Source: Escherichia coli
Lineage (GTDB): Bacteria; Pseudomonadota; Gammaproteobacteria; Enterobacterales; Enterobacteriaceae
Length of the DNA: 64,000 nucleotides
NCBI RefSeq assembly: GCF_024298765.1
Contig: NZ_CP101210.1
Direction: 5' to 3' (one strand)
The position numbers were made by a program, and so were the translations under genes. Position 1 is the stretch's first letter. Every line of letters begins with the position of its first letter. The notes under the pieces are model-generated. The model was not told the origin of the DNA, did no database searches, and worked only from the letters and a program-made list of their open reading frames with translations. Positions 3,714 to 4,926 of the stretch are shown piece by piece.

Positions 3714-4502
3714 TTAACTGTATGCATGTAGCGTACGTTGGCAAAGTGCCGAACGTACGCAATCCTCTTTACCGAATCGGACGATCCCGACCATTTCATC
3801 TTCTTCGAAACGTTCCAGCGCGTCACTTAATCCGGAGCGCACGCCGCGAGGCAAATCGCATTGCGTGATATCACCGTTGACGATAACCGTCACGTTCTCC
3901 CCGAGGCGGGTTAAAAACATTTTCATTTGCGCGGCAGTCACATTCTGCGCCTCGTCAAGAATGACGACTGCATTTTCAAAGGTACGTCCACGCATATAGG
4001 CGAACGGCGCAATTTCCACCTTCCCTATTTCCGGTCGCAGGCAGTACTGCATAAAGGAAGCCCCTAAGCGCCGAACCAGCACGTCGTAGACCGGGCGAAA
4101 ATAGGGAGCAAACTTTTCTGCGATATCACCAGGTAAGAAGCCAAGATCTTCATCGGCTTGCAGAACTGGACGGGTGACGATAATCCTGTCGACATCCTTA
4201 TGTATCAGGGCCTCTGCCGCTTTTGCTGCGCTGATCCAGGTTTTTCCGCACCCGGCTTCGCCCGTGGCGAATATCAGCTGCTTACTCTCAATAGCCTTCA
4301 GATAGTGCAATTGCGCTTCATTTCGCGCGAGGATGGGCGAGGTATCGCGACTATCGCGGGCCATACCAATGGCTTCTACGCCGCTCATTTGCACAAGCGA
4401 GGTGACCGATTCTTCTTCACGCTGCTTATGGCTGCGCGAATCCCGTCTCAGCACACGTTTTGCCTCGCGACGAGCTTTGATCACTGCTTTTTGTCTTCCC
4501 AT
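3714..4502 (-). CDS. phoH: PhoH, phosphate-starvation-inducible ATPase (PhoH/PIN-associated NTPase family), 262-aa core form; alternative starts at GTG 4637 or, with a frame change, ATG 4777
   Basis: Translation MGRQKAVIKARREAKRVL...IFATGEAGCGKTWI...AYMRGRTFENAVVILDEAQN... has a Walker A P-loop and matches PhoH; start ATG 4500-4502 is preceded by an AAGG SD-like motif. Confidence 0.8.
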   Translation of the reverse strand: MGRQKAVIKARREAKRVLRRDSRSHKQREEESVTSLVQMSGVEAIGMARDSRDTSPILARNEAQLHYLKAIESKQLIFATGEAGCGKTWISAAKAAEALIHKDVDRIIVTRPVLQADEDLGFLPGDIAEKFAPYFRPVYDVLVRRLGASFMQYCLRPEIGKVEIAPFAYMRGRTFENAVVILDEAQNVTAAQMKMFLTRLGENVTVIVNGDITQCDLPRGVRSGLSDALERFEEDEMVGIVRFGKEDCVRSALCQRTLHAYS

Positions 4503-4926
4503 GGAGAGCACCTTGAGTTGTTTGTATTCATCACACGCGCCGTTGGCAGCGCGATTATGCGCACGAACATCAGAGGGTTGGCTTCCTTGTAAGCCATAGT
4601 TTGCTTTTGGATAAAATGCCGAAAAACGGCTACGCACACCGTTTGCGGCGTCGGTAACACGAGTAAAGAGAGGAAGTGAGAAAAATACAGAGTGACGAAG
4701 TTGCTACCGGAGGAGAAATCTCCGCGAGTGGTGGAGCCTTGCTTAACAAAACATTGTCCAGAACAGGACGTTACCATCCGCGATCTCCATAGTGACTGAC
4801 TATCACTGCCGGGAACTTCCGCTGCTACTTAATAATTACAACAGATTTCGCATTCATTGCAACAATATATTCACTTACATTTAACCATAAAACACCATTT
4901 CAGTGACATTAGTTTCTACTGGAAAG

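What the first reader, a model, noticed from the sequence alone, without database searches (positions are those of the whole stretch)
3714..4777. phoH 5' region sits in two overlapping reading frames
The ATPase-domain frame (3714-4637) has an in-frame stop at 4704-4706 and no ATG before 4502. A 98-aa ORF in another frame (4481-4777) starts at an ATG with a GGAGA Shine-Dalgarno 6 nt upstream, about 150 nt downstream of the pho box at 4927-4945. From that ATG to the phoH stop is 1064 nt, one short of a multiple of three, and I recall K-12 PhoH as about 354 aa (1065 nt). Either this allele carries a 1-nt indel, or PhoH is made as the shorter 262-aa form from the ATG at 4502.
Basis: partly seen in the sequence, partly recalled or inferred. 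Interest (0 to 1): 0.35.

Follow-up and report, generated by a model that had tools for sequence, protein, structure and literature searches.

The report
Translated, structured leader before phoH
The "two reading frames" at the start of phoH are real and natural: the true PhoH protein starts at the downstream ATG, and the ~275 bases before it appear to be a conserved, folded mRNA leader that ribosomes read through, joined in frame to phoH in some strains such as K-12 and out of frame in others such as this one.

Summary
Relative to K-12, the window lacks one base (between 4680 and 4681). This splits K-12's 354-codon ORF into a 98-codon upstream ORF (4777-4481) and the PhoH core (4502-3714). 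It is not an error or a dead gene. About 36% of 5,426 complete E. coli genomes share this allele, as do E. albertii, Salmonella and most Citrobacter. The 262-aa core keeps its own invariant SD-ATG and dN/dS of 0.04. RefSeq and NCBIfam use the short form; UniProt uses 354 aa.

The upstream 92 codons do not evolve as a protein. They show no codon periodicity, and dN/dS is 0.6-0.8, similar to control frames. Yet in 79 of 79 Enterobacteriaceae species the ORF from an invariant GGAGA-N6-ATG stays open up to the phoH start: fused in 53, ending at +22 in 21, ending at -23 in 5. Indels are multiples of three except at six or more independent frame switches.

The same stretch holds covarying RNA helices, an invariant hairpin and a C-rich, G-poor tract, and has no Rfam match.

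Best reading: a translated, structured leader that carries ribosomes to phoH, where the peptide sequence is irrelevant. The mechanism (Rho shielding or coupling) is inferred, not shown.

The parts
4926..4943 (-). Pho box (PhoB binding site) of the phosphate-starvation promoter
   Evidence: TGTCATCACTTTGTCATC read; one mismatch to the K-12 PhoB ChIP-seq site upstream of phoH listed in PMC10294691
4784..4788 (-). Shine-Dalgarno GGAGA of the leader ORF, 6 nt before ATG 4777
   Evidence: GGAGAT and the ATG are invariant in 47/47 aligned species and present in 79/79 species with enough flank
4481..4777 (-). Leader ORF (98 codons plus TGA). It overlaps the first 21 nt of phoH in another frame. In K-12-type alleles the same start reads in frame into phoH (354 aa)
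4756..4769 (-). Hairpin GUCC-N6-GGAC just after the leader start (helix 2)
   Evidence: 99.5% paired, one compensatory change; mostly invariant, so weakly tested
4706..4727 (-). Hairpin CGGAG...CUCCG (helix 3) with covariation. The TAG at 4706-4704, which closes the phoH frame upstream, abuts its 3' arm
   Evidence: 3 of 6 pairs have double-sided changes; 96.8% paired
4653..4705 (-). C-rich, G-poor, sequence-variable linker (rut-like). It contains the 1-nt deletion relative to K-12 (between 4681 and 4680) and a conserved TCAC (4691-4694) that could pair with the phoH SD
   Evidence: C 35%, G 9%, C/G >= 2 in 47/47 species. helix 4: 100% paired with 14 one-sided wobble-compatible changes and no double changes. 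Deletion site:
4615..4652 (-). Two-part hairpin (helices 5 and 6), the most strongly covarying element
   Evidence: all 7 pairs of helix 5 and 2 of 4 pairs of helix 6 have double-sided compensatory changes
4580..4595 (-). Invariant hairpin GGCUU-ACAAGG-AAGCC (helix 7). The loop plus the first stem base reads ACAAGGA
   Evidence: all 5 pairs invariant in 47 species, so there is no covariation evidence. The resemblance to a CsrA site is from my own knowledge and was not tested
4529..4559 (-). Hairpin CGCGCUG-CCAA-CGGCGCG with a closing CAU/AUG (helices 8 and 9); covarying
   Evidence: 4 of 7 pairs have double-sided changes (for example Salmonella CGCGUUC/GAACGCG and E. albertii CGUGCCG/CGGCACG)
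4509..4514 (-). Shine-Dalgarno AAGGTG of phoH proper, 6 nt before ATG 4502
   Evidence: AAGGTG and the ATG are present in all 80 species loci
3714..4502 (-). phoH coding sequence proper (262 aa plus TAA), a P-loop ATPase of the PhoH family
3671..3696 (-). Probable intrinsic terminator of phoH (AGCCCGG-GCGAA-CCGGGCU followed by a T run)
   Evidence: Read. Most E. coli matches to the window end here. Not scanned with the terminator tool

Best explanation
SHOWN. The window carries the 'split' allele of the phoH leader-gene junction. PhoH proper is the 262-aa protein from ATG 4502, with its own invariant ribosome-binding site. The ~275 nt between ATG 4777 and ATG 4502 are not a protein domain. Their codons evolve almost neutrally, while several RNA helices covary, one hairpin is invariant, and a ~54-nt tract stays C-rich and G-poor although its sequence drifts.

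INFERRED. The stretch is nevertheless translated. An invariant GGAGA-N6-ATG opens an ORF that selection keeps free of stop codons and of non-triplet indels right up to the phoH start. Whether that ORF is in frame with phoH appears to be immaterial. In K-12, Enterobacter, Klebsiella and others it is in frame, giving the '354-aa PhoH'. In this window, Salmonella and Citrobacter it is out of frame and ends 21 nt inside phoH, and in Kluyvera it ends 23 nt before phoH. Lineages have switched at least six times.

HYPOTHESIS for the mechanism. On the Pho-box-driven transcript, ribosomes starting at the strong upstream site translate across the leader. This would protect the rut-like tract from Rho, or melt the leader structure around the phoH ribosome-binding site, or both. 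It would deliver ribosomes to the phoH start by read-through in fused alleles and by termination-reinitiation in split alleles. A premature stop would therefore be polar on phoH, which explains why the ORF's length is conserved but not its peptide.
For: Polymorphism is natural:
- The window-type patch occurs in 1,954 genomes at >=95% identity and the K-12-type patch in 3,408.
- Representatives of each type were checked for frame state.

The core is the conserved protein:
- It is 93-100% identical across 80 species, and every match starts at residue 1.
- Core dN/dS is 0.02-0.04 in fused genera and 0.04 in split lineages.
- NCBIfam NF007827 and PDB 3b85 cover only the core.
- Ribo-RET lists an internal in-frame start in phoH.

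The extension is not a protein domain:
- There is no 3-periodicity upstream of the ATG, against strong periodicity downstream.
- dN/dS is 0.57-0.84 in fused genera and 0.76 in split lineages, where the control frames give 0.75-0.77. Its dN is ~10x that of the core and its dS is 2-3x lower.
- It has no Pfam or NCBIfam hit.

The leader appears to be translated:
- The SD-ATG is present in 79/79 species and its ORF reaches the phoH start in 79/79: 53 fused, 21 ending at +22, 5 ending at -23.
- Mean stops are 0.06 in that frame against 3.3 and 6.1 in the other frames. Dinucleotide shuffles keep it open about 5% of the time.
- Stops occur at 1 distinct alignment site in that frame against 31 and 48 sites in the other frames.
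- All indels in fused species are multiples of three (>=9 events), and the extra indels inside split Citrobacter are also 3 nt.

The leader is structured:
- RNAalifold gives 49 pairs, 96.4% of cells paired against 26-50% for slid partners.
- There are 112 compensatory cells against 13-40 in slid controls, and 0/500 shuffles reach the observed values.
- The 28 differences between the two E. coli haplotypes avoid all paired columns (P = 0.002).

Rut-like tract: C/G >= 2 in 47/47 species.
Against: - No direct evidence of initiation at ATG 4777 was available. The Ribo-RET text confirms only an internal site and does not say whether the upstream start gave a peak.
- The role of Rho rests on base composition alone, and no paper linking phoH to Rho or bicyclomycin was found.
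- Single-sequence folding is only weakly better than shuffles (z -1.4 and -1.5).
- The pairings that would mask the phoH ribosome-binding site (helix 4, helix 1, uSD:AUG) have no double-sided covariation.
- In fused genera, dN/dS of the extension in its own frame is lower than the mean of the control frames in four of the five groups (0.57-0.75 in Enterobacter, Buttiauxella, Kosakonia and Pseudocitrobacter; Phytobacter is the exception), so weak protein-level selection is not excluded.
- Two thirds of species are fused, which also fits a genuine long isoform.
- The position of the second, constitutive phoH promoter, which I recall from Kim et al. 1993, could not be checked because the paper is not held.
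Confidence: 0.6

Rival explanations
1. The 354-aa protein is a genuine long isoform whose N-terminal 92 residues are a fast-evolving, probably disordered extension made under phosphate starvation. Split alleles have simply lost it, and the 262-aa form carries the essential function.
For: - 53 of 79 species keep the fusion, and all their leader indels are multiples of three.
- dN/dS of the extension in its own frame is 0.57-0.84, lower than the mean of the control frames in four of the five groups; Phytobacter is the exception.
- UniProt records PHOH_ECOLI as 354 aa.
- Alternative in-frame starts are known for other E. coli genes.
Against: - In split lineages the unfused ORF is still kept open to the phoH start, and its indels are still 3 nt.
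- There its dN/dS equals that of the control frames.
- No codon periodicity is seen.
- Synonymous sites evolve more slowly than in the core, and the helices covary, so the constraint is on RNA.
- About 36% of E. coli, plus Salmonella and Citrobacter, do without the extension.
Confidence: 0.2
2. The leader is a purely non-coding structured RNA (a riboswitch-like or protein-bound element, for example CsrA at the ACAAGGA hairpin), and the upstream ATG-initiated ORF is incidental.
For: - The helices covary and one hairpin is invariant.
- There is no amino-acid-level constraint.
- The hairpin loop matches the CsrA core motif, which is my own knowledge and was not tested.
Against: - An incidental ORF would not stay open in 79/79 species while the other frames carry stops at 31-48 sites.
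- It would not restrict indels to multiples of three.
- It would not keep GGAGA-N6-ATG invariant.
- No Rfam family matches.
- No paper links CsrA regulation to phoH among the hits listed.
Confidence: 0.1
3. The window allele is a loss-of-function frameshift (a pseudogene in the making) of a 354-aa PhoH.
For: One base is missing relative to K-12 and the long ORF is interrupted.
Against: - The 262-aa product is identical (WP_000533536.1) in split and fused strains.
- Core dN/dS in split lineages is 0.04.
- The internal SD-ATG is invariant.
- The allele is present in ~36% of genomes and is shared with other species.
Confidence: 0.03
4. Programmed -1 ribosomal frameshifting restores the 354-aa fusion in split alleles.
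For: The two ORFs overlap by about 200 nt, within which a -1 shift would join them.
Against: - There is no X XXY YYZ heptamer in the window's leader ORF, nor in 24 of 26 split species.
- The frame switches sit at six or more different positions, with no shared site.
Confidence: 0.02
5. Sequencing or assembly error in a T homopolymer.
For: The missing base adjoins a T5 run (4685-4681).
Against: - The same sequence is found in 1,954 complete genomes from many laboratories.
- It is part of a 28-difference haplotype.
Confidence: 0.01

Closest known systems
Leader-ORF control of Rho-dependent termination (tnaC-tnaA in E. coli; mgtL-mgtA and corL-corA in Salmonella) - from my own knowledge
   Same: An SD-ATG upstream ORF lies in a long leader between a regulated promoter and the gene, with a C-rich, G-poor tract that ribosomes would cover and alternative RNA structures in the leader.
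   Different: Those leader ORFs are short (roughly 17-40 codons), end well before the gene, and act through specific codons or peptide sequence. Here the ORF is 84-98 codons, has no conserved peptide, always runs to the gene's start, and is fused in frame to the gene in two thirds of species. Dependence on Rho is not shown.
Translational coupling through overlapping stop/start, and long-range masking of a downstream ribosome-binding site (for example coat-replicase in RNA phage MS2) - from my own knowledge
   Same: In split alleles the upstream ORF stops 21 nt after, or 23 nt before, the phoH ATG. A conserved upstream TCAC(C/U) can pair with the phoH SD GGUG.
   Different: Coupling was not tested. 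The masking helix is only 4 bp in most species and has one-sided changes only.
In-frame alternative initiation giving two isoforms (ArcB and SpeA in Meydan et al., 10.1101/520783; IF2 and ClpB from my own knowledge)
   Same: In K-12-type alleles two in-frame starts 92 codons apart both carry SD sequences, and Ribo-RET lists phoH among genes with a conserved internal start.
   Different: The segment unique to the long form shows no protein-level conservation, and a third of E. coli and whole genera dispense with it. In known isoform pairs that segment is a functional domain or signal.
PhoH family P-loop ATPases (Pfam PF02562; NCBIfam NF007827; PDB 3b85)
   Same: The core from ATG 4502 is a full-length member (E = 6.8e-77 and 2e-154).
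   Different: None for the core. The 92-codon upstream stretch lies outside every family model.

Membership tests
PhoH family (phosphate starvation-inducible P-loop ATPase) | PhoH domain PF02562 / NCBIfam equivalog NF007827 above the curated cut-off | tested here: met
   PF02562: 258 bits against a cut-off of 27. NF007827: 512 bits against a cut-off of 380, covering residues 9-261 of the 262-aa protein.
PhoH family (phosphate starvation-inducible P-loop ATPase) | Walker A nucleotide-binding loop | tested here: met
   GEAGCGKT is present in the translation and invariant in 38 species.
Pho regulon promoter | Pho box (two TGTCA-type repeats 11 bp apart) in place of the -35 element | tested here: met
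   TGTCATCACTTTGTCATC lies at 4943-4926, one mismatch from the ChIP-seq-verified K-12 site. Binding in this strain is not testable here.
Leader-peptide / upstream-ORF attenuator acting through Rho (tnaC-like) | Upstream ORF with its own SD and start codon in the leader | tested here: met
   GGAGA-N6-ATG is invariant in 47/47 aligned species and present in 79/79.
Leader-peptide / upstream-ORF attenuator acting through Rho (tnaC-like) | Conserved regulatory codons or peptide sequence | tested here: not met
   No periodicity, and dN/dS is about the same as in the control frames.
Leader-peptide / upstream-ORF attenuator acting through Rho (tnaC-like) | rut site and Rho-dependent termination in the leader | tested here: inconclusive
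   The composition fits (C 35%, G 9%, C/G >= 2 in 47/47). Termination itself is not testable with these tools, and no literature was found.
Translationally coupled gene pair | Upstream stop codon within a few tens of nt of the downstream start | tested here: met
   The stop ends at +22 in 21 species and in the window, and at -23 in 5 species.
Translationally coupled gene pair | Downstream translation depends on upstream translation | not testable with these tools
   This needs reporter fusions with stop codons placed in the leader ORF.
Conserved structured cis-regulatory RNA | Base pairs supported by compensatory changes beyond controls | tested here: met
   17 pairs with double-sided changes; 112 compensatory cells against 13-40 in slid controls; 0/500 shuffles reach the observed values.
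Conserved structured cis-regulatory RNA | Match to a described Rfam family | tested here: not met
   No hit on window 4502-4905 at E <= 5.
Programmed -1 ribosomal frameshift site | Slippery heptamer X XXY YYZ in the upstream frame within the overlap | tested here: not met
   None in the window, and none in 24 of 26 split species.
In-frame alternative-start isoform pair | Both starts used by ribosomes | tested here: inconclusive
   The internal start is reported by Ribo-RET. Data for the upstream start are in a table that is not held. The feature does not apply to the window allele, where the two starts are out of frame.

The most novel reading that the evidence does not exclude
The 5' quarter of the annotated K-12 phoH gene is an undescribed kind of riboregulatory leader. 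It is a ~275-nt RNA in which selection maintains the act of translation (start site, open frame, triplet indels) and a set of covarying helices plus a rut-like tract, but not the peptide. Its fusion to the downstream gene has toggled repeatedly in evolution. In E. coli the two states coexist as a deep dimorphism, more divergent than the E. coli-E. albertii split, which may be kept by balancing selection.
Probability: 0.35. Interest if true: 0.65.

Novelty: new member of a known kind. Interest (0 to 1): 0.5.

Why it matters
phoH is a core Pho-regulon gene of unknown function and a widely used marker gene, and reference databases disagree on its start (UniProt 354 aa, RefSeq 262 aa). Three consequences follow from this analysis.

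- **Annotation.** The upstream 92 codons are a translated, structured leader rather than part of the protein. This settles the annotation conflict and explains why a third of E. coli strains look "frameshifted".
- **Gene calling.** Deposits of the 98-aa ORF under names such as "PhoH family P-loop ATPase" should not be trusted.
- **Regulation.** There is a testable layer of post-transcriptional control on phosphate-starvation expression. The element has probably escaped non-coding RNA screens because it sits inside an annotated coding sequence in K-12, Enterobacter and Klebsiella.

It is also a clean natural example of selection acting on translation itself rather than on the product.

Tried and rejected
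- **AlphaFold2** on the 354-aa form with 38 fused orthologues gave mean pLDDT 36, with the known core also poor. It is uninformative and was not used.
- **Literature.** Kim et al. 1993 (the phoH promoters), the published Ribo-RET tables and the Thomason dRNA-seq tables are not held. Nakahigashi 2016 does not mention phoH. Searches for phoH with a pho box plus transcription start, with Rho, with bicyclomycin or with psiH found nothing useful. The CsrA search returned no paper on phoH regulation.
- **Promoter scan.** No sigma-70 consensus was found in 4400-5130, so the second promoter could not be placed. The conserved CATAAT at about 4559-4554 could be a -10 element or simply part of helix 8.
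- **Long-range pairing of the upstream SD with the phoH start.** This pairing (CUAUGGAGA with UCUCCAUGG) appears in both E. coli MFE folds. Across species it is 80% paired with no covariation, and its central pair exists only in Escherichia, so it is inconclusive.
- **A 38-codon ORF from the ATG at -95.** It is present in many species, but the ATG is lost in Salmonella and Kosakonia sacchari and there is no consistent coding signal. Rejected as a gene.
- **Other rivals.** Programmed frameshifting, sequencing error and pseudogenisation were each tested and rejected.
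Full report
**1. The observation**

phoH lies on the minus strand.
- A 307-codon ORF, 3714-4637, starts mechanically at a GTG. Its product carries the PhoH domain at residues 102-306.
- An in-frame TAG sits at 4706-4704, and there is no in-frame ATG above 4502.
- A 98-codon ORF, 4481-4777, starts at an ATG preceded by GGAGA with a 6-nt spacer.
- A Pho box, TGTCATCACTTTGTCATC, lies at 4943-4926. It is one mismatch from the K-12 site verified by PhoB ChIP-seq (PMC10294691).
- ATG 4777 to the stop at 3714 is 1064 nt.

**2. Comparison with K-12 and the E. 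coli population**

K-12 has an intact 354-codon ORF from the homologous ATG. The window lacks one base between 4681 and 4680. That deletion sits inside a ~100-nt patch (about 4657-4762) in which the two alleles differ at 26 positions, while the flanks are nearly identical.

I ran patch-only megablast searches, which cannot bridge the two haplotypes.
- The window type was found at >=95% identity in 1,954 of 5,426 complete genomes.
- The K-12 type was found at >=95% identity in 3,408 genomes.

I checked representatives of every identity band.
- Window-type strains have 275 nt between the two ATGs and a 98-codon ORF.
- K-12-type strains have 276 nt and the 354-codon ORF.
- Mosaics exist (EC42405, wlxctx60).
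- FG31-1 carries an independent 1-nt deletion on the K-12 background.

The per-band frame states are extrapolated from these representatives. PGAP annotates 789 nt (262 aa) in all twelve genomes inspected, K-12 included. So the allele is natural and common, and it is not an assembly error.

**3. Which protein is PhoH?**

The 262-aa core is 93-100% identical across 80 species of Enterobacteriaceae. Every match starts at Met-1 (MGRQKAV), preceded by AAGGTG.
- Core dN/dS is 0.02-0.04 in genera with the fusion and 0.04 in lineages without it, so the split allele is not a decaying gene.
- NCBIfam's PhoH equivalog (253 positions) and the only solved relative (3b85) cover the core only.
- Meydan et al. 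list phoH among genes with an in-frame internal initiation site shared by two E. coli strains, with locally enhanced synonymous conservation (10.1101/520783). I infer that this site is Met-93 of the long form, which corresponds to ATG 4502. The text held does not give the codon.
- Databases disagree. UniProt's PHOH_ECOLI is 354 aa and RefSeq's multispecies entry is 262 aa. The 98-aa ORF is deposited on at least 1,000 contigs under names from 'hypothetical protein' to 'PhoH family P-loop ATPase'.

**4. The upstream stretch does not evolve as a protein**

In an 81-sequence alignment, the core shows strong codon periodicity: entropy at positions 1 and 2 is 0-0.18 bits, and at position 3 up to 0.96 bits. 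The 330 nt upstream show none in any phase.

Within genera where the fusion is intact:
- dN/dS of the extension is 0.57-0.84 in its own frame, and 0.5-2.5 in the control frames.
- Its dN is about ten times that of the core.
- Its dS is two to three times lower than the core's.

This indicates constraint on nucleotides rather than on amino acids. In split lineages the leader ORF's dN/dS (0.76) equals that of the control frames (0.75-0.77).

**5. Yet the frame is kept open**

In 79 of 79 species with enough flank, GGAGA-N(5-7)-ATG is present. The ORF it opens runs to the phoH start:
- fused in frame in 53 species (352-356 codons);
- ending 21 nt inside phoH in 21 species;
- ending 23 nt before phoH in 5 species.

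Several measures show this is more than chance.
- Mean stop counts over ~91 codons are 0.06 in that frame, against 3.3 and 6.1 in the other two frames.
- Dinucleotide shuffles keep the frame open about 5% of the time.
- Counted as distinct alignment sites, which is less sensitive to shared ancestry, the frame has one stop site (the terminal one) against 31 and 48 in the other frames.
- In fused species every leader indel is a multiple of three, at nine or more sites. Within split Citrobacter the additional indels are also 3 nt.
- Frame-changing indels occurred at six or more independent places: A2 columns 131 (window type), 143 (Enterobacter cloacae M7), 195 (E. albertii, E. whittamii, Salmonella, Citrobacter), 209 and 218 (the Pseudescherichia and Kluyvera groups), plus FG31-1. 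Each time, the new frame still reaches the phoH start.

This is the signature of a stretch that is translated, where length and frame matter but the peptide does not.

**6. The same stretch is a structured RNA**

I ran RNAalifold on an unfitted MAFFT alignment of 47 species. It predicts 49 pairs in 10 helices. The controlled count gives:
- 96.4% of cells paired, against 26-50% with slid partners;
- 17 pairs with double-sided changes;
- 112 compensatory cells, against 13-40 in slid controls and 34.8 +/- 7.1 in shuffles;
- 0 of 500 shuffles reaching any of the observed values.

Support differs by helix.
- Well supported: helix 3 (window 4706-4727), helices 5 and 6 (4615-4652) and helix 9 (4536-4553).
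- Invariant, so untested: helix 7 (GGCUU-ACAAGG-AAGCC, 4580-4595).
- Two long-range pairings between conserved segments show only one-sided or no changes and remain hypotheses. One pairs TCAC at 4691-4694 with the phoH SD. The other pairs GAUCGC at 4780-4785 with GUGAUC at 4479-4484.

Other structural observations:
- Between helix 3 and helix 5 lies a ~54-nt tract that is highly variable in sequence but is 35% C and 9% G, with C/G >= 2 in 47 of 47 species. That is the composition expected of a Rho loading site.
- The 28 differences between the two E. coli haplotypes avoid every paired column (P = 0.002).
- Rfam has no family for this region.
- Single-sequence folding is only weakly better than shuffles.

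**7. Interpretation**

What is shown:
- the allele is natural;
- the 262-aa core is the conserved protein;
- the upstream stretch lacks protein-level constraint;
- its frame is maintained;
- it contains covarying helices.

What is inferred: ribosomes translate the leader from ATG 4777.

What is hypothesised: this translation shields the rut-like tract from Rho, or opens the structure around the phoH ribosome-binding site, or both. It would deliver ribosomes to phoH by read-through in fused alleles and by termination-reinitiation in split alleles. Under this model a premature stop is polar on phoH, which explains the conservation pattern.

The main rival is that the extension is a real but fast-evolving protein tail. 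It fits the fused majority, and in four of the five fused groups dN/dS in the extension's own frame is below the mean of the control frames (Phytobacter is the exception). It does not explain why unfused leader ORFs stay open and keep triplet indels.

**8. What is known and what is new**

The start-site discrepancy is implicit in the databases, and the internal start has been seen by Ribo-RET. I found no description of any of the following:
- the leader's covarying structure;
- the family-wide maintenance of its ORF without peptide conservation;
- the repeated toggling between fused and split states;
- the deep dimorphism within E. coli.

The closest known systems are leader-ORF-controlled Rho attenuators (tnaC, mgtL, corL) and translationally coupled overlapping genes. 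This leader differs from them in ORF length, in the lack of a conserved peptide, and in its optional in-frame fusion. I file it as a new member of the class of translated regulatory leaders, with the mechanism unproven.

**9. Limits**

- I had no access to ribosome-profiling tables, the 1993 promoter paper or transcription-start data.
- The AlphaFold run failed.
- The taxonomic range beyond Enterobacteriaceae was not explored.
- Haplotype counts are estimates from identity bands.

Noticed in passing
window 4657-4762 (alignment A2 cols 46-157): The two E. coli leader haplotypes are only 77% identical to each other in this patch. That is less than either is to E. albertii (83-85%), although the next 170 nt downstream are 97% identical between them. 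Both haplotypes are common (~36% and ~63%), and mosaics exist. This could be a deep balanced polymorphism, introgression or diversifying selection; it is unresolved.
   Followed up: partly
window 614-3700: Downstream of phoH, K-12 has the convergent pgaDCBA operon. The window instead carries a DUF2726 gene (2465-3151, minus strand), an integrase-core (rve) fragment (1564-2169, plus strand) and tRNA-Ser(GGA) (614-701). So the pga biofilm operon seems to be replaced by a small island next to the tRNA. Most E. coli matches to the window end at ~3671, right after the phoH terminator.
   Followed up: partly
window 4994-5120: REP-like elements lie in the efeB-phoH spacer and give sub-threshold Rfam naRNA4 hits (42.8 and 39.5 bits against a gathering score of 59.5). 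The spacer length varies between strains (the locus coordinates differ by ~19 nt).
   Followed up: no
window 4580-4595: The invariant hairpin GGCUU-ACAAGG-AAGCC presents ACAAGGA, which matches the core of the CsrA SELEX consensus as I recall it. Further GGA motifs lie in the upstream SD (4784-4788) and at codon 2 of phoH. Possible CsrA control was not tested.
   Followed up: no
window 4472-4502 (first 10 codons of phoH): Third-codon-position entropy is 0.15 bits in the first 10 codons of phoH against 0.35-0.96 further in. This agrees with the enhanced synonymous conservation reported by Meydan et al. It is consistent with an RNA-level role for this segment, which contains the leader ORF's stop codon and one arm of the proposed long-range helix 1.
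   Followed up: partly
locus L009 (E. coli FG31-1) and locus L065 (Enterobacter cloacae M7): Each carries a recent, independent 1-nt deletion in an otherwise fused-type leader. In FG31-1 the leader ORF is cut to 44 codons, the only case seen of an ORF that does not reach phoH. It would be a natural test strain for polarity.
   Followed up: partly
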